18,367 nt of DNA from UHGV virus genome UHGV-1667981. The stretch is one strand, 5' to 3'. The DNA is from a virus. Positions 3,614 to 16,084 of this stretch are shown piece by piece (positions within the stretch are counted from its first letter, which is position 1; each line of letters opens with the position of its first letter). The notes below the pieces were generated by a model. It saw nothing but the letters and a program-made list of their open reading frames with translations. It was not told the DNA's origin and searched no databases. The position numbers and the translations under genes were made by a program.

Positions 3614-3778
3614 AATACCCTCCAAATTCATATAGTTAGTGGGTTATTGCCCCTCAATGACACGAACTGTAACTCTGCCAAACGAACACATCCAGTGTTA
3701 TTTTTCGCTTTTTAATGAAATTTTTAATTTGCGTTGTTTTCTTGTTTTGGTGTATTTTATGGATGTGGAGGCTATAAT

Positions 3779-4090
3779 ATGTTTAACGTGATAACCCACC
3801 CTGCAGCACTGGATGAACTGCTTGAACTACCAGATGATTTGCGAGGTCGCATGGCCAGATTAATTGAGCGACTGGAGAAAGAAGGCAACAAACTGAAGAT
3901 GCCCCATAGCCGTGTAATAGGTGGAGGGCTTTTTGAACTACGAGTAGGGGATAAAAACATCGCAAGAACGCTGTACGCCTACGCGACTGGTAACGAAATT
4001 TATCTATTGCATGCATTTGTAAAAAAGACACAGAAAACACCGGTGAAGGCTATCGAAATCGCCAGAACTCGCCTGAAGGAGATGAACTGA
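3779..4090 (+). CDS. Type II toxin, RelE/ParE superfamily, HigB-like (Gp49-like)
   Basis: ORF 3734..4090(+); favoured start ATG 3779 with GGAGG SD 8 nt upstream. Motifs GGGLFELRV and LLHAFVKKTQKTP are recalled as typical of HigB/Gp49-like toxins. Toxin-first order, stop overlaps antitoxin start (TGATG). Confidence 0.8.
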   Translation: MFNVITHPAALDELLELPDDLRGRMARLIERLEKEGNKLKMPHSRVIGGGLFELRVGDKNIARTLYAYATGNEIYLLHAFVKKTQKTPVKAIEIARTRLKEMN

Positions 4091-4377
4091 TGAAAGCGAA
4101 AGGCATCCCGTTTAACGAAGTAAAAGAAAAACTCCTCAACACTCCAGAAGCCGTCAAAGGATATGAAGAGGCCGACAAAGAGCTGGAGATGGTCGAAATG
4201 TTATACGAAATGAGGGAAAGAGCAGGTTTAACGAAATCAGCTCTGGCTGAACGAATGGGGTTACGACCGTCAGCCATCAGCCGCCTGGAAAGCAATCCTT
4301 TAGGGGCAAGTATGAAAACTTTGGCTAAATATGCTCATGCCTGCGGCGCAGCCATCGATATTCGCGCTGTTTATTAA
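4090..4377 (+). CDS. HTH (XRE-family) antitoxin, HigA-like
   Basis: ORF 4090..4377(+), 95 aa. Helix-turn-helix segment LTKSALAERMGLRPSAISRLE. AAGGAG SD 8 nt upstream. Translationally coupled to the upstream toxin. Confidence 0.85.
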   Translation: MKAKGIPFNEVKEKLLNTPEAVKGYEEADKELEMVEMLYEMRERAGLTKSALAERMGLRPSAISRLESNPLGASMKTLAKYAHACGAAIDIRAVY

Positions 4378-4393
4378 TTAGACTCTTTTACTA

Positions 4394-4413
4394 CCCCGTC
4401 CAGAAGGGCGGGG
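4394..4413. other. GC-rich hairpin between convergent genes (8-bp stem with one G-U, AGAA loop); possible non-canonical terminator
   Basis: ccccgtcc-agaa-gggcgggg. No U-tract on either side, so not a canonical intrinsic terminator. Confidence 0.3.
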
Positions 4414-4419
4414 TGTGCA

Positions 4420-4623
4420 TCAATGATGTGAACGCTCAACAGCGATAGTTTTCTGACAATGCTGGGCAATCTCTCGCGACATGTTGATGAGTCGTGAAAC
4501 CTCACCAATATGTAGGCTGGCTTCTGGAGAAGCCAGGGTGACGCTAACCAGATCCAGAATGGCGTCAATATCTCTTAAATTTGAATCGAGTTGTTCAAGA
4601 GTTGATACGGCTGCTTCAGACAT
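4420..4623 (-). CDS. Small protein (67 aa) downstream of a LexA box; candidate SOS-inducible antirepressor
   Basis: ORF 4420..4623(-). A CTGT-N8-ACAG LexA box lies 37-56 bp upstream of the start and overlaps a candidate -10. Function is inferred from context only; no sequence family recognised. Confidence 0.5.
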   Translation of the reverse strand: MSEAAVSTLEQLDSNLRDIDAILDLVSVTLASPEASLHIGEVSRLINMSREIAQHCQKTIAVERSHH

Positions 4624-4659
4624 TAAATCTCATACCATTTAACTAAAAAAGGTTGTTTG

Positions 4660-4679
4660 TACTGTATAAAATTACAGGG
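4660..4679. promoter_or_regulatory. LexA (SOS) box tACTGTATAAAATTACAGgg
   Basis: Both CTGT and ACAG half-sites intact with an AT-rich 8-bp spacer; 15/20 matches to the TACTGTATATATATACAGTA consensus by eye. Overlaps a candidate promoter (TTGAGT-17-TACAGT on the minus strand) for the 4420..4623 gene. Confidence 0.6.
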
Positions 4680-4705
4680 TAAAACTCAAACTTTACGGTC
4701 AATTT

Positions 4706-5308: not shown

Positions 5309-5968
5309 TTACTTAACCCAATTAACTACACCGCCAGCGGCCACAACCGCCCTTTCACAGTCACGCTCATATCTCAAAGGTTGAAATACACCATCAATAA
5401 AATATTTATCTCCACCAAACGTTGCAGGAAGTGAAACAGAAAACTGAACATGACCATCCGGAGTTACCGGAGAGTTGCCAGCCTCATACGCGACCCTTAT
5501 CCAGTGCATAAACATTTCAGTACTTACACATCCACAATCAACATCAATTTTGTCATGCTGCTGTTCCAGCCATTGCTCAAAAGTTAACTTGTAAGTTTGG
5601 CTTACAGGTTTGGCTTCCAGTTCTGCTACGCGCTGTTTTGCAGCATCCAGTTCAATCGACAATTTTTCCAACTGCTCTTTATGCTTCTTGTATTCCTGAT
5701 ATGCGTGCCAGGACTGACCTTTGCGCACACTATCAGTAATATCAGTAATCTGTTCTGGTGTTAGCGTAGTCAGTGGCTGTGCTGGGAAAATCAGCACTTT
5801 CCCGGAATCCCAATCAAAACCAGCGTGAATTGACTGAACCTCAACTGAGGGTGTTGAACCAATGCTGCCAGGCGAATGAATAACGATTGTTACATCCATA
5901 TCGCGACGATGGCTGTGGTTGTTGGACAAAATACGATTCACCAACTCAGAAAATTTGGAAAATTTCAT
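5309..5968 (-). CDS. Hypothetical protein (219 aa) with central coiled-coil segment
   Basis: ORF track 5309..5968(-); KEQLEKLSIELDAAKQRVAELEA heptad-like segment. Overlaps the upstream gene's stop (5965..5968), suggesting translational coupling. Confidence 0.55.
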   Translation of the reverse strand: MKFSKFSELVNRILSNNHSHRRDMDVTIVIHSPGSIGSTPSVEVQSIHAGFDWDSGKVLIFPAQPLTTLTPEQITDITDSVRKGQSWHAYQEYKKHKEQLEKLSIELDAAKQRVAELEAKPVSQTYKLTFEQWLEQQHDKIDVDCGCVSTEMFMHWIRVAYEAGNSPVTPDGHVQFSVSLPATFGGDKYFIDGVFQPLRYERDCERAVVAAGGVVNWVK

Positions 5969-6255
5969 GCTGATTCCCCTTTCTCTGCTCTCTCCTGTCG
6001 GAACATCACTATCATCAGGTCGCCTTTTGTCGCTATCTTGGCTGTTGTGCCTGGCTCAATGCGGCTAAGTTCAAATGCGTCATAGAACGCCTCTAACACT
6101 TTCTGGCGTCTTTCCTGTTTGCGGTGCTTTCCCCACTGCTTTAGAAAAACAGAGGCCGCCCACTTCCCCGCACTGAACATGATGTAAAACCAACCGAGAA
6201 GTGCCAGACCGATATTTAGGGCCGTATCGATCGTTATCGTGGTGTCGATATTCAC
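5965..6255 (-). CDS. Hypothetical small membrane protein (96 aa, one N-terminal TM helix)
   Basis: ORF track 5965..6255(-); hydrophobic LNIGLALLGWFYIMF followed by a charged tail. Start overlaps the upstream gene's stop. Confidence 0.45.
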   Translation of the reverse strand: MNIDTTITIDTALNIGLALLGWFYIMFSAGKWAASVFLKQWGKHRKQERRQKVLEAFYDAFELSRIEPGTTAKIATKGDLMIVMFRQERAEKGESA

Positions 6256-6674
6256 TACGCCACCTCCTGTAAATTTCCCTGATAAAAAGCCAGCACACGC
6301 TGCATAACTTCACTTTTCCGGCAATCGTGACAAATCATGTTCAAGCGCCTGTCGTAACGACGTATTTCTCCGTCAGGTAATGACCAGATAAGGTCTGGAT
6401 CAACCACTACCGATTTCTTCGGCTTTACTCTTGATAGTTTTTTACGGGCGTTTTGCCAGTCCTTGCGTGCTTGTGCAGACAGAAATATCCCGGAGCCAGA
6501 GATATACAAATCACCACTGGCAGCAAGCTCTCTTGATAAACGACTAACAGCACACCGGCTAATACCAGTTTCATCCGCAAGTTGCCTAACCGTTCCTCGT
6601 CCATTCAGGCGCACGAATTCCACAATTTGTTTATTCAGTTCTTCCCTCTGTTCTGGTGTAAAAGCCTTTGCCAT
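6255..6674 (-). CDS. Hypothetical DNA-binding protein (139 aa) with N-terminal HTH and CHDC motif
   Basis: ORF track 6255..6674(-); HTH-like segment TVRQLADETGISRCAVSRLSRELA. Start overlaps the exonuclease gene stop at 6674. Confidence 0.55.
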   Translation of the reverse strand: MAKAFTPEQREELNKQIVEFVRLNGRGTVRQLADETGISRCAVSRLSRELAASGDLYISGSGIFLSAQARKDWQNARKKLSRVKPKKSVVVDPDLIWSLPDGEIRRYDRRLNMICHDCRKSEVMQRVLAFYQGNLQEVA

Positions 6675-7273
6675 TACGATTCTCCTTGCCCTTTTACAAG
6701 ACGGGAGAAAATTGCGGATACATATTTAGCCTGATGAATAGCATCAGCCAGGGCATTGTGTCGTTCGCCATCAAATGGCATATCTTTTTTAGGATTAAAA
6801 CCAATAAACTGACCAAGATTAACGATTGTTCGAACATCCTGATCATTAAAATATTCCCATGGACAGGCTAAGCCAACGCGCTCATAAGCACCGCGTAAAA
6901 TTACATTATCGAACGTTGCTCCATTTCCCCATACTTTCAACTTTTTTAAATTACATGCATGGCAAGTAATAAAGTGTGATAATTCAAAAAGTGCATCATT
7001 AATATCAAGGGCATCATTAGTACAAATAGCGGCTCTGGCTTCCTTGCTCTGTTTCAACCACCATAAAATGGTATCACCATCGGCGATACCACCATTCAAC
7101 ATCGAGCTTCTGAGATTCACTGGCACATAAAAAGTAGGACCTAATTCCTCACTTTCTGGAGAAAAAAACACTGCCCCGATAGAAACAATTGGAGCACATG
7201 TGTTAGTACCCATTGTTTCAAGGTCAATCATTACATCAGACCGTTTCCTGTCGTAAATAATCTGATTAGTCAC
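6674..7273 (-). CDS. DEDDh-type 3'-5' exonuclease (DnaQ-like fold)
   Basis: ORF 6674..7273(-), 199 aa; GTG start with GAGGAG SD 8 nt upstream. Exo I-like motif MIDLETMG (D-x-E) and C-terminal H-x4-D (ERHNALADAIH). Confidence 0.7.
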   Translation of the reverse strand: MTNQIIYDRKRSDVMIDLETMGTNTCAPIVSIGAVFFSPESEELGPTFYVPVNLRSSMLNGGIADGDTILWWLKQSKEARAAICTNDALDINDALFELSHFITCHACNLKKLKVWGNGATFDNVILRGAYERVGLACPWEYFNDQDVRTIVNLGQFIGFNPKKDMPFDGERHNALADAIHQAKYVSAIFSRLVKGQGES

Positions 7274-8746: not shown

Positions 8747-9343
8747 ATGAAAACACGAGGCGAACGACTGAAAGCACGCCGTTTAGAGATGAAGCTGACG
8801 TTGCGAGAAGTTGCTGAGGCTGTCGATATCTCTATAGCAGGCGTCCAAAACTTAGAACGTGGCGACGTAATGCCGTCACTGGAGATAGGTATTGCCCTGG
8901 CTAAGTGCTTACGCAAGCCAGTGCATTGGGTGCTATATGGGACAGAATATGACCCTGATCGCATTCCTGTTATTGGCACAACTGAAAGTGGGCCAGATGA
9001 AGAGTGGAAGCCGGGACAGGTTCCAAATACTGAGCGATTCCTGCCATTCATCAGCCAGCGCAATACTGTGTATGCGTTAACTATCAGCAATCTTACGCAG
9101 GGAAACTATCAGCCAGGCGATTTTCTCCTGGTCGATTCTGCGCTGGAACTGGTCCCCGGCGAGGATGTTCTGGTTCGTGATACTGCAGGAAATATCACTA
9201 TCCAGCGCCTGGCCCGTTTTGATGATGAAAATTACTATCTGGATGGAACAAACTCACAACGCGCCATCTTCAGGAAAAGCGATCTTGAATTTGTTCACCA
9301 AATAGTCGGAACGATCAAATCATTCATGGTTGAGGGTAGATGA
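8747..9343 (+). CDS. CI/CB-like prophage repressor: N-terminal XRE-type HTH plus C-terminal LexA/S24-like domain
   Basis: ORF 8747..9343(+), 198 aa. HTH region LTLREVAEAVDISIAGVQNLERG; C-terminal PGDFLLVD...GEDVLVRD resembles the S24 fold. No obvious Ser in a G-x-S-M context, so autocleavage may be absent. Confidence 0.85.
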   Translation: MKTRGERLKARRLEMKLTLREVAEAVDISIAGVQNLERGDVMPSLEIGIALAKCLRKPVHWVLYGTEYDPDRIPVIGTTESGPDEEWKPGQVPNTERFLPFISQRNTVYALTISNLTQGNYQPGDFLLVDSALELVPGEDVLVRDTAGNITIQRLARFDDENYYLDGTNSQRAIFRKSDLEFVHQIVGTIKSFMVEGR

Positions 9344-14637: not shown

Positions 14638-14746
14638 TGTGCGTCGTTTTGACGGTAAAGTTACTTCGCTGCGGTAAATCCCGTAGCCGGGACTCTCAAC
14701 CCCGAAATCCGAACGACGCACAACACGCGCCAGCGTGTTTTTTTGT
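14638..14746 (+). ncRNA. Candidate structured small RNA or leader (c4/CA-RNA-like) ending in an intrinsic terminator
   Basis: Long-range stem gtgcgtcgtt (14640..14649) pairs with aacgacgcac (14712..14721), enclosing about 60 nt. Followed by terminator hairpin aacacgc-gcca-gcgtgtt plus T-run (14722..14746). No credible coding ORF here. Identity as a regulatory RNA is inferred from position and structure only. Confidence 0.35.
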
Positions 14747-14844
14747 GTGTATGAGCCTGCGCATATCCGAATTATGGTGGCTCAGGTGGGGCAGCCGAAA
14801 GGCTGGCCGGTGTCGTTTGGGCCGGTGTTGAGAACCCCGCTTGG

Positions 14845-14890
14845 GCTACCACCCCATAGAGATTCTCAACTCTGGTGGTAGCACTGTTTT
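14845..14890 (+). terminator. Attenuator-like hairpin (9-bp stem GCTACCACC/GGTGGTAGC, 20-nt loop) followed by TTTT, just upstream of the antirepressor operon SD
   Basis: Loop contains TTCTCAAC, which is complementary to GTTGAGAA at 14827..14834 and is also repeated (CTCTCAAC) at 14693..14700. T-run starts 4 nt after the stem. Confidence 0.35.
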
Positions 14891-14910: not shown

Positions 14911-15075
14911 ATGTTCAAATTCAAATTTGCGGCAGTCGTTCGCACAGACAAAAAGTCACACATCCATCATCTTTCCACCATCGCGTCATCTGAACGGGAA
15001 GCTCGTCGCCAGTTCGCCAGCCGGTTTGTCCTGGTATTGTCTGCCCGTATTCCGGTGCGCGAGGTGGCTGCATGA
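14911..15075 (+). CDS. Small protein (54 aa), first gene of the antirepressor operon; possibly Icd-like
   Basis: ORF 14875..15075(+); ATG 14911 preceded by AAGAG with 8-nt spacer. Stop overlaps the next gene's start (ATGA). Icd-like role is a guess from operon position. Confidence 0.45.
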   Translation: MFKFKFAAVVRTDKKSHIHHLSTIASSEREARRQFASRFVLVLSARIPVREVAA

Positions 15076-15305
15076 ATCAGGTAAAAATGAACACTGTTGG
15101 CCTGCTGGAATCGTTGGATGAACGTCTGGCTCAGGTCTATGCGCTTGTGTCATCCGCCCATCGTACAGTCTCCAGCTGTGAGGCGTCGATTTATCTCTCA
15201 GAAGCCGGGAAGCTCCTTCAAATTGCGTGTGAGTTGACACACAAAGCACAGGGGTATTCAGCATCTCTCTCGTCGCAATTGCAGCACAATAAGGAGGCCA
15301 AATGA
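15072..15305 (+). CDS. Hypothetical protein (77 aa), second gene of the antirepressor operon
   Basis: ORF track 15072..15305(+); GAGGTGG SD upstream; ATGA overlaps at both ends indicate translational coupling. Confidence 0.55.
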   Translation: MNQVKMNTVGLLESLDERLAQVYALVSSAHRTVSSCEASIYLSEAGKLLQIACELTHKAQGYSASLSSQLQHNKEAK

Positions 15306-16084
15306 GCGCGTTAGCTGTATTTTCGTTTCAGGAAGAGCATCAGGTTCGTGTAGTGATGATTAACGGCGATCCGTGGTTTGTAGCGGCTGATGTTTGTAAT
15401 GCCATCGGGATTATCAATCATCGTGATGCTGTTGGTAAGTTGGATGAAGACGAAAAGGGGGTCGGTTCAACAGACACCCTTGGAGGTAAACAGGGAGTGA
15501 CAATTATTAACGAATCCGGCCTCTATACCCTAATCCTCCGCTGCCGTGACGCGGTGAAGCAAGGCACAACAGCTTGGCGGTTTCGCAAATGGGTAACGAA
15601 CGAAGTCTTGCCCTCTATTCGCAAAAATGGAGAGTACGTTTACGTCGAGCCAGAGCCAATGCGAGCAGCAGAGCCGTTGAACTGGAGGCAGAAAGAGTAT
15701 CTGCGAGGGCTGATTAACGATATTGCACAAAGTTTTCAATACCGAAATGCCTGGATTAGCGGTGTATGGTTGGCTTTGCGTCGGGCGTGTCGTAATCCAT
15801 CCCCGAACCCCATAACTGTTGATGATTTGCCAGCAATTACGGCAGAACTGCGCCGGATTTTGACGGCTGCTGAGTCGGCATTGGGGAACATGCGCACGTA
15901 TGAACGAGAGTTGTTGCGTGATGTTGTTCGTGGTGGTAGGCGGAGTATGTCGTGTGGTGATTTGCCCATCACCGATATCAACTCTGATCTGGAAAAGGCG
16001 TTACCCGCGCATTTTGAACTGGCAGTTCAAAAACTTGAGCAGTTGTCCGCGCAGCTAAAGCCAGCAGAAATCACCAATAAATAG
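15302..16084 (+). CDS. Prophage antirepressor with Bro-N/AntA-type N-terminal domain
   Basis: ORF 15302..16084(+), 260 aa; AAGGAGG SD. N-terminal motifs (GDPWFVAADVCNAIGI, LGGKQGVTIINESGLYTLILRC, WRFRKWVTNEVLPSIRKNGEY) match the Bro-N/AntA antirepressor domain as recalled. Confidence 0.8.
   Translation: MSALAVFSFQEEHQVRVVMINGDPWFVAADVCNAIGIINHRDAVGKLDEDEKGVGSTDTLGGKQGVTIINESGLYTLILRCRDAVKQGTTAWRFRKWVTNEVLPSIRKNGEYVYVEPEPMRAAEPLNWRQKEYLRGLINDIAQSFQYRNAWISGVWLALRRACRNPSPNPITVDDLPAITAELRRILTAAESALGNMRTYERELLRDVVRGGRRSMSCGDLPITDINSDLEKALPAHFELAVQKLEQLSAQLKPAEITNK

What the first reader, a model, noticed from the sequence alone, without database searches (positions are those of the whole stretch)
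4420..4679. Well-formed LexA box controlling a 67-aa gene: candidate SOS-inducible antirepressor
tACTGTATAAAATTACAGgg (4660..4679) has both CTGT and ACAG half-sites with 8-bp AT-rich spacing and overlaps a plausible promoter for the minus-strand 67-aa ORF. The resident repressor appears to lack an obvious autocleavage serine context, so SOS induction may run through a small LexA-controlled antirepressor, as described for coliphage 186 Tum, Gifsy prophages and N15. This would be a second, separate anti-immunity input alongside the Bro-N antirepressor operon.
Basis: partly seen in the sequence, partly recalled or inferred. Interest (0 to 1): 0.65.

Follow-up and report, generated by a model that had tools for sequence, protein, structure and literature searches.

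The report
N15-type LexA-controlled antirepressor gene antC
This is the local copy of a published switch from phage N15, in which the host DNA-damage repressor LexA keeps a tiny phage gene silent until damage occurs and its product then inactivates the prophage repressor; it is real and well conserved, but ordinary.

Summary
A perfect CTGT-N8-ACAG LexA box lies at 4662-4677 (20-mer 4660-4679), 38 nt upstream of a 67-aa minus-strand ORF (4420-4623).

The window is an N15-like linear plasmid-prophage (Ravinvirus), 99% identical to Escherichia phages PhiR46_1 and YDC107_1. The ORF is the syntenic orthologue (54% identity) of an unannotated N15 ORF between genes 47 and 48. That ORF carries the same LexA box, which fits the published antC, the SOS-regulated antirepressor of repressor CB (Mardanov & Ravin 2007).

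All 34 distinct upstream regions recovered from 70 related loci keep the box 38-42 nt before the start codon (one, phiKO2, with a single half-site mismatch), although the proteins diverge to about 46%. Five upstream regions aligned in detail share TTGNNN-17-TACAGT, so the box covers the spacer and the -10.

The 198-aa repressor is 78% identical to N15 CB. Its degenerate S24-like domain lacks the Ser/Lys dyad (Asn115, Gln153).

This is a new member of a known kind, of low interest. The useful by-product is annotation: the family is called "hypothetical" everywhere, and the N15 RefSeq record lacks the CDS.

The parts
4660..4679 (.). LexA (SOS) box. The + strand reads TACTGTATAAAATTACAGGG; in the direction of the gene it reads CCCTGTAATTTTATACAGTA. 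The core CTGT-N8-ACAG is at 4662-4677.
   Evidence: the only perfect match in the window; 19.1 bits, at the level of known SOS boxes; conserved in 34 of 34 distinct upstream regions. ATACAGTA is invariant in five diverged phages.
4684..4689 (-). Candidate -35 hexamer TTGAGT of the antC promoter.
   Evidence: Read. TTTG is invariant in the upstream alignments. The 17-nt spacing to TACAGT is conserved in the five upstream regions aligned. This is inferred; the promoter scan did not call it.
4661..4666 (-). Candidate -10 hexamer TACAGT, lying inside the promoter-proximal half of the LexA box.
   Evidence: invariant. The overlap with the box implies that LexA occludes RNA polymerase. This is inferred.
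4629..4638 (-). Translation-initiation region. It holds a conserved GGTA (4636-4633), a weak Shine-Dalgarno-like GAG (4631-4629) 5 nt before the ATG, and a two-codon upstream ORF ATG-GTA-TGA (4638-4630).
   Evidence: GGTA is invariant. In N15 the same upstream ATG is in frame and gives a 75-aa form.
4420..4623 (-). antC orthologue: a 67-aa acidic protein predicted to be a two-helix hairpin, the candidate antirepressor of CB.
   Evidence: 54% identity to the N15 ORF, E 1e-15; phrog_6301, E 3.7e-35; synteny; helices 3-29 and 33-66, pLDDT 91; coding-type substitution pattern.
4390..4416 (.). GC-rich hairpin between the convergent antC and HTH-antitoxin genes, a probable transcription stop for both.
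   Evidence: -14.6 kcal/mol, z = -2.1. It has no clear U-tract and the terminator scan did not call it.
8747..9343 (+). CB prophage repressor (198 aa): an HTH_3 domain plus a degenerate, non-catalytic S24-like C-terminal domain. It is the inferred target of the 67-aa protein.
   Evidence: HTH_3 at 3e-11; Peptidase_S24 scores 21.3 bits against a 23.3 cutoff; 77.8% identity to N15 cB. UmuD Ser60 aligns with Asn115 and Lys97 with Gln153. N115 and Q153 are invariant in 12 CB variants.

Best explanation
The 67-aa gene is the antC orthologue of an N15-like linear plasmid-prophage.

In the lysogen, host LexA binds the box at 4660-4679. The box covers the spacer and the -10 element of a weak promoter (TTGAGT-17-TACAGT), so antC stays silent.

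DNA damage activates RecA, LexA cleaves itself, and antC is transcribed. The small acidic helical-hairpin protein then binds the CB repressor, which cannot self-cleave, and removes it from its operators. This derepresses cro, Q and repA and starts lytic growth.

Shown here: the box, its score, its conservation at a fixed distance from the start codon, the orthology and synteny with N15, and the loss of the catalytic dyad in CB.

Inferred: LexA binding, the exact promoter, and AntC-CB binding in this phage. These are carried over from the published N15 work.
For: Identity of the element: the window is 99% identical to Ravinvirus phages PhiR46_1 and YDC107_1.

Orthology: gene order gp46-gp47-ORF-gp48-gp49 is collinear with N15. 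The ORF is 54% identical to the unannotated N15 ORF at 39619-39831.

N15 itself has only two credible LexA boxes. One precedes the umuD-like gene 26. The other lies 39 nt before this ORF.

The box is conserved in 34 of 34 distinct upstream regions, while the proteins fall to about 46% identity. Its weight-matrix score is 19.1 bits. The TTGNNN-17-TACAGT spacing is conserved in the five upstream regions aligned, and TTTG and TACAGT are invariant across the 32 distinct upstream regions.

CB is 77.8% identical to N15 CB and has Asn and Gln at the Ser and Lys positions.

Literature: N15 AntC is LexA-controlled and acts on CB (PMC3121763, PMC4488713, PMC11652158, all citing Mardanov & Ravin 2007). 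The N15 repressor is non-proteolytic (PMC10432266). No cleavage site or dyad is found in N15 or phiKO2 CB (PMC4997575).
Against: There is no experiment on this phage.

The primary N15 paper is not in the held library. Equating the N15 ORF with the published antC therefore rests on position, the LexA box and my recollection.

The promoter matches only 8 of 12 consensus positions and was not called by the scan.

At 54% identity to N15 AntC, this protein is the most diverged of its syntenic neighbours (68-85%), so its specificity or strength may differ.

The bare CTGT-N8-ACAG pattern occurs by chance 0.2 times per window.
Confidence: 0.9

Rival explanations
1. The gene is SOS-regulated but is not an antirepressor. 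On this view the small protein does some other damage-response job, such as modulating RecA like DinI, inhibiting cell division like SulA or Icd, or acting as a small toxin, and prophage induction runs through another route.
For: No Pfam family matches. Fold searches return only generic helical hairpins with E above 0.5. Every database entry is called hypothetical. The window also holds a separate Bro-N antirepressor operon that could supply anti-immunity.
Against: The gene is orthologous and syntenic to the only LexA-boxed small ORF of N15, and in N15 the LexA-controlled gene is the antirepressor needed for induction (PMC3121763, PMC4488713). There is no match to DinI or Tum. A weaker match to phrog_10889, annotated 'anti-repressor', has E 4.5e-8. 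CB cannot self-cleave, so some SOS-linked antirepressor is needed (PMC10432266).
Confidence: 0.06
2. The LexA-like palindrome is fortuitous or non-functional. On this view the ORF is expressed only by read-through from the upstream CB-repressed early operon (cro, Q ... gp46, gp47), so it plays no part in triggering induction.
For: CTGT-N8-ACAG is expected 0.2 times per window by chance. No promoter or terminator was called between gp47 and the ORF, so read-through from upstream is possible as well.
Against: The box keeps a fixed position in 34 of 34 distinct upstream regions, and ATACAGTA is invariant while the flanks and the coding sequence diverge. It scores at the level of real SOS boxes, and only 1 of 200 shuffles reaches that score.
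Confidence: 0.03

Closest known systems
AntC of coliphage N15 (Mardanov & Ravin 2007, J Bacteriol 189:6333)
   Same: - Same phage group (Ravinvirus).
- Same genomic slot, between gp47 and the gp49/gp48 toxin-antitoxin pair.
- Same protein family (54% identity; phrog_6301).
- Same LexA box position and the same TTGNNN-17-TACAGT arrangement.
- Orthologous, non-cleavable CB repressor (78% identity).
   Different: - It is a diverged allele and the most diverged gene in its neighbourhood.
- The C-terminal tail differs.
- Activity and specificity have not been tested.
Tum of coliphage 186 (p95 SOS operon)
   Same: The logic is the same. A LexA box overlaps the -10 of a dedicated promoter (one search shows TACTGTATGTTTATACAGTA at the p95 -10). 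The product is an antirepressor that blocks DNA binding by a non-cleavable CI.
   Different: There is no detectable homology (hhalign probability 0.1%). Tum is 146 aa and includes a DinI-like half. The phage lineage (P2-like) and the repressor family also differ.
Gifsy and Fels-1 antirepressors GfoA, GftA and FsoA (Lemire et al. 2011, PMC3121763)
   Same: They are small (about 70-80 aa) LexA-controlled antirepressors encoded outside the immunity region, and they act by binding non-cleavable repressors.
   Different: There is no detectable homology to the Gifsy-2 ORF that follows dinI (hhalign probability 0.2%), which belongs to a different PHROG (phrog_4847). I took that ORF to be gftA from its position only. 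The Gifsy genes sit in a dinI-antirepressor-irsA operon, whereas antC here is monocistronic.
Bro-N/Ant antirepressors with C4 antisense RNA control (P1/P7 immI, N15 immA antB)
   Same: They also counteract the primary repressor, and one is present in the same window (15302-16084, with the C4 RNA at 14770-14856).
   Different: The protein is unrelated and much larger (260 aa, Bro-N domain). Control is by an antisense RNA, not by LexA.

Membership tests
N15 AntC family (LexA-controlled antirepressor of telomere phage-plasmids) | Sequence homology to the N15 antC product | tested here: met
   tblastn gives 54% identity over 63 aa, E 1e-15. Both proteins hit phrog_6301, at 3.7e-35 and 1.5e-25. The motif SPEASLH is almost fully conserved. 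Caveat: the N15 ORF is equated with published antC by its position and its LexA box, because the paper is not held.
N15 AntC family (LexA-controlled antirepressor of telomere phage-plasmids) | Same genomic position in an N15-like genome (after gene 47, convergent with genes 48/49) | tested here: met
   Ortholog table. Annotated relatives.
N15 AntC family (LexA-controlled antirepressor of telomere phage-plasmids) | LexA box overlapping the gene's own promoter | tested here: met
   The box is present and conserved. The overlap with the candidate -10 TACAGT is read from the sequence. The promoter itself is inferred.
N15 AntC family (LexA-controlled antirepressor of telomere phage-plasmids) | Cognate CB-type repressor that cannot self-cleave | tested here: met
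   The repressor is 77.8% identical to N15 CB. Its S24 match is below the cutoff. Asn115 and Gln153 occupy the Ser and Lys positions. Literature: PMC4997575, PMC10432266.
N15 AntC family (LexA-controlled antirepressor of telomere phage-plasmids) | The protein binds CB and relieves repression, and is required for SOS induction | not testable with these tools
   This needs pull-down or two-hybrid assays, reporter assays and a deletion mutant.
E. coli-type SOS box (LexA operator) | 16-bp core CTGT-N8-ACAG with an A/T-rich spacer, scoring like known operators | tested here: met
   perfect core.
E. coli-type SOS box (LexA operator) | Bound by LexA in vitro or in vivo | not testable with these tools
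   This needs EMSA, a footprint or ChIP.
Tum/DinI family (phage 186) | Sequence homology to Tum or to the DinI domain | tested here: not met
   hhalign probability is 0.1%. There is no Pfam hit, DinI included.
Gifsy-type small antirepressors (GfoA/GftA/FsoA) | Sequence homology | tested here: not met
   hhalign probability is 0.2% against the Gifsy-2 ORF downstream of dinI, which falls in a different PHROG. I identified that ORF as gftA from its position only.

The most novel reading that the evidence does not exclude
The window's AntC allele and its CB allele may form a distinct specificity pair. If so, AntC/CB pairs would define cross-talk groups among N15-like plasmid prophages sharing a cell, as with the Gifsy antirepressors.

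The allele is 54% identical to N15 AntC, and a 76% variant is found next to an identical CB. The strongly acidic first helix (net charge -5) might work as a DNA mimic on the CB HTH domain.

None of this is excluded by the data, and none of it is shown.
Probability: 0.25. Interest if true: 0.35.

Novelty: new member of a known kind. Interest (0 to 1): 0.15.

Why it matters
The mechanism adds little, because LexA-controlled antirepression in N15 was published in 2007.

The practical value is in annotation. Every member of this small family is labelled "hypothetical protein", phiKO2 calls it Gp47, and the N15 RefSeq record has no CDS there at all. As a result, the SOS trigger goes unnoticed in N15-like phage-plasmids, which are common in E. 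coli, Klebsiella and Enterobacter and sometimes carry resistance genes.

A simple signature would let these elements be flagged as SOS-inducible: a CTGT-N8-ACAG box 38-42 nt before a gene of 67 to about 80 aa that contains SPEASLH.

Tried and rejected
- Primary paper: Mardanov & Ravin 2007 could not be read by DOI or PMC id. Four literature searches for a text that gives antC coordinates found only citing papers, and one apparent hit was an author's surname.
- Promoter and terminator scan: nothing was called on the minus strand. The promoter and the hairpin were therefore read by eye and supported by conservation and folding.
- Foldseek of the AlphaFold model against the PDB and BFVD gave only generic helical hairpins with E above 0.5, which is uninformative.
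- Homology to Tum and to the presumed Gifsy-2 GftA was tested and rejected.
- The scan of species-representative genomes gave only 2 loci. The viral collection was the useful one.
- AntC identity correlates with CB identity (Spearman 0.83). I do not use this as evidence of co-evolution, because shared phylogeny alone would produce it. A 76% AntC variant also pairs with a 100% identical CB.
- Exhaustive HMMER over 1.84 billion representatives found only 5 hits, so the family is narrow and no distant annotated relative turned up.
- The membership of phrog_10889 ('anti-repressor', E 4.5e-8) could not be inspected.

Full report
**What is in the sequence**

The + strand at 4660-4679 reads TACTGTATAAAATTACAGGG. 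The core CTGT-N8-ACAG lies at 4662-4677, its spacer is entirely A/T, and it is the only perfect match in the 18,367-bp window.

The minus-strand ORF at 4420-4623 begins with ATG and encodes 67 aa: MSEAAVSTLEQLDSNLRDIDAILDLVSVTLASPEASLHIGEVSRLINMSREIAQHCQKTIAVERSHH. The box ends 38 nt upstream of that ATG.

**Is it more than chance?**

The bare 8-base pattern is not. About 0.2 matches are expected per window, and 39 of 200 shuffles have at least one. Two other tests are decisive.

- Weight matrix. It gives the site 19.1 bits, at the leave-one-out median of the known boxes (18.5). The next best site in the window scores 11.3, and 1 of 200 shuffles reaches 19.1.
- Conservation. I collected 70 related loci from annotated phages, IMG/VR and GTDB genomes. 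All 34 distinct upstream regions carry the box 38-42 nt before the homologous start codon. It is perfect in 33 of them, and phiKO2 has ATGT in one half-site. In the alignments, ATACAGTA, the CTGT half and an upstream TTTG are the most conserved blocks, while the flanks vary.

**What the element is**

The window is an N15-like linear plasmid-prophage. The region is 99% identical to Escherichia phages PhiR46_1 and YDC107_1, the latter classified as Ravinvirus.

An ortholog table against N15 shows collinearity from the protelomerase through RepA, CB, Cro and Q to the lysis genes. It includes gp46 (80%), gp47 (68%), the 67-aa ORF (54%), gp48 (85%) and gp49 (85%).

The N15 counterpart is an ORF at 39619-39831 that is not annotated in either N15 record. 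It is preceded by CCCTGTGTTTATATACAGTA.

N15 has only two credible LexA boxes. One is immediately upstream of the umuD-like gene 26, and the other is this one. A third perfect core, inside the tape-measure gene, has a G/C-rich spacer.

N15 AntC is described in the literature as a LexA-controlled antirepressor that acts on the CB repressor and is encoded apart from immA and immB (PMC3121763, PMC4488713, PMC11652158, all citing Mardanov & Ravin 2007). I could not open the primary paper. Equating this N15 ORF with antC is therefore an inference from position, the LexA box and recollection. I consider it very probable.

**The gene product**

The ORF evolves as a coding sequence. Among 33 distinct alleles, 43, 34 and 61 of 66 aligned codons vary at positions 1, 2 and 3 respectively.

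The family is small:
- Exhaustive HMMER over 1.84 billion representatives found five hits.
- A profile search found 37 clusters, all from Enterobacteriaceae-type contigs and none named.
- Pfam has no match.
- PHROGs places it in phrog_6301 ('unknown function', E 3.7e-35), with a weaker match to phrog_10889 ('anti-repressor', E 4.5e-8).

AlphaFold2 with 21 homologues gives a confident two-helix hairpin (helices 3-29 and 33-66, pLDDT 91). The near-invariant SPEASLH sits at the turn. Fold searches return only generic hairpins. The protein is acidic, with net charge -5 that is carried entirely by helix 1.

**The repressor**

The 198-aa protein at 8747-9343 is 77.8% identical to N15 CB. It has an HTH_3 domain and a Peptidase_S24 match below the curated cutoff (21.3 against 23.3 bits).

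In the HMMER alignment to UmuD, the catalytic Ser60 aligns with Asn115 and Lys97 aligns with Gln153. Both residues are invariant in 12 diverged CB sequences. The neighbouring Ser114 of this allele is Gly or Glu in the others.

This agrees with published work. N15 and phiKO2 CB lack the cleavage site and the Ser/Lys dyad (PMC4997575), and the N15 repressor is not proteolysed under SOS conditions (PMC10432266).

**How it most likely works**

Reading the minus strand gives TTGAGT (4689-4684), a 17-nt spacer, then TACAGT (4666-4661). The LexA box (4679-4660) covers most of the spacer and the whole -10.

This promoter matches only 8 of 12 consensus positions, and the scan did not call it. However, the same TTGNNN-17-TACAGT spacing is kept in N15, phiKO2, Enterobacter phage MStein-2023a and KpLi5. 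Phage 186 p95 has a comparable arrangement, with the LexA box starting at the -10.

The inferred cycle has four steps:
1. LexA occludes RNA polymerase in the lysogen.
2. DNA damage leads to LexA self-cleavage.
3. antC is transcribed from a short leader with a weak Shine-Dalgarno sequence (GAG at 4631-4629).
4. AntC binds CB and lytic genes are derepressed.

A GC-rich hairpin at 4390-4416 (-14.6 kcal/mol) lies between antC and the convergent antitoxin gene. It probably ends both transcripts, although it lacks a clear U-tract. Only the sequence anatomy and the conservation are shown here; the binding steps are inferred from N15.

**Comparison with known systems**

The gene is a member of the N15 AntC family by homology, synteny, operator and cognate repressor.

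It works like Tum of phage 186 and the Gifsy antirepressors, but it is not homologous to them. The hhalign probability is 0.1% against Tum and 0.2% against the Gifsy-2 ORF that follows dinI. That ORF belongs to a different PHROG.

The Bro-N antirepressor at 15302-16084 is 74% identical to N15 gp30.

**Novelty and verdict**

What it describes is the orthologue of a system published in 2007, in a phage of the same genus. I rate it a new member of a known kind, with low interest (0.15).

The residual points of interest are these:
- The family is unannotated everywhere, including in the N15 RefSeq record.
- AntC is the fastest-diverging gene in its neighbourhood.
- A 76%-identical AntC allele occurs next to an identical CB, which leaves open questions about specificity and cross-talk.

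The region occurs in 16 of 5,426 complete E. coli genomes, always on plasmids.

Noticed in passing
window 14668-14856 (+): Rfam gathering-level hits to isrK (14668-14743, 54.9 bits) and to the C4 antisense RNA (14770-14856, 71.8 bits). They lie just upstream of the icd-like ORF (15072-15305) and the Bro-N antirepressor (15302-16084). This is the P1 immI / N15 immA type of anti-immunity operon with its processed antisense RNA.
   Followed up: partly
N15 record NC_001901 39619-39831 (L003 2501-2713): The N15 RefSeq and GenBank records have no CDS for the LexA-boxed ORF between genes 47 and 48. phiKO2 calls its homologue Gp47, YDC107_1 calls it 'putative gp47', and every other database entry is 'hypothetical protein'. 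The characterised antirepressor is effectively missing from annotation.
   Followed up: yes
window 4630-4638 (-): An ATG 15 nt upstream of the antC start opens a two-codon ORF here (ATG GTA TGA). In N15 the same ATG is in frame and gene callers produce a 75-aa form (MVYDSM...). In the Klebsiella phages that ATG is absent. The true start in N15 is therefore ambiguous, and the GGTA within it is invariant.
   Followed up: partly
loci L028-L036 (IMG/VR contigs), AntC at about 6001-6201: A second AntC allele, only 75-76% identical to the window's, sits next to a CB repressor that is 99-100% identical to the window's. The substitutions are spread along both helices and are mostly conservative.
   Followed up: partly
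window 3734-4377 (+): A Gp49-family (HigB/RelE-like) toxin and an HTH_3 antitoxin pair, 85% identical to N15 gp49 and gp48, converge on antC and share the hairpin at 4390-4416.
   Followed up: partly
window 5309-7273 (-): Four consecutive genes have no N15 counterpart. They are annotated in relatives as PmgU-domain/Ea22, hypothetical, LygF and exonuclease. This is a mosaic replacement inside an otherwise collinear early operon.
   Followed up: no
N15 NC_001901 21660-21675 (L016): A second good LexA box (CTGTATAAAAAAACAG) lies 16 nt upstream of N15 gene 26, which is UmuD-like. The equivalent region is outside this window.
   Followed up: no
phiKO2 and Klebsiella N15-like phages (hits H42-H49): tblastn with the distant family member P0014 reports two matching places per record in phiKO2 and the Klebsiella phages, but one place in the E. 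coli phages. This may point to a second AntC-like paralogue in the Klebsiella group. In addition, the phiKO2 box has a mismatched half-site, ATGT.
   Followed up: no
window 8747-9343 (+), residues 73-90: The CB linker PVIGTTESGPD resembles the LexA cleavage-site region (PLVGRVAAGEP; my manual alignment from memory), with Ser-Gly in place of Ala-Gly. This suggests that CB descends from a self-cleaving repressor that lost its dyad (Asn115, Gln153).
   Followed up: partly
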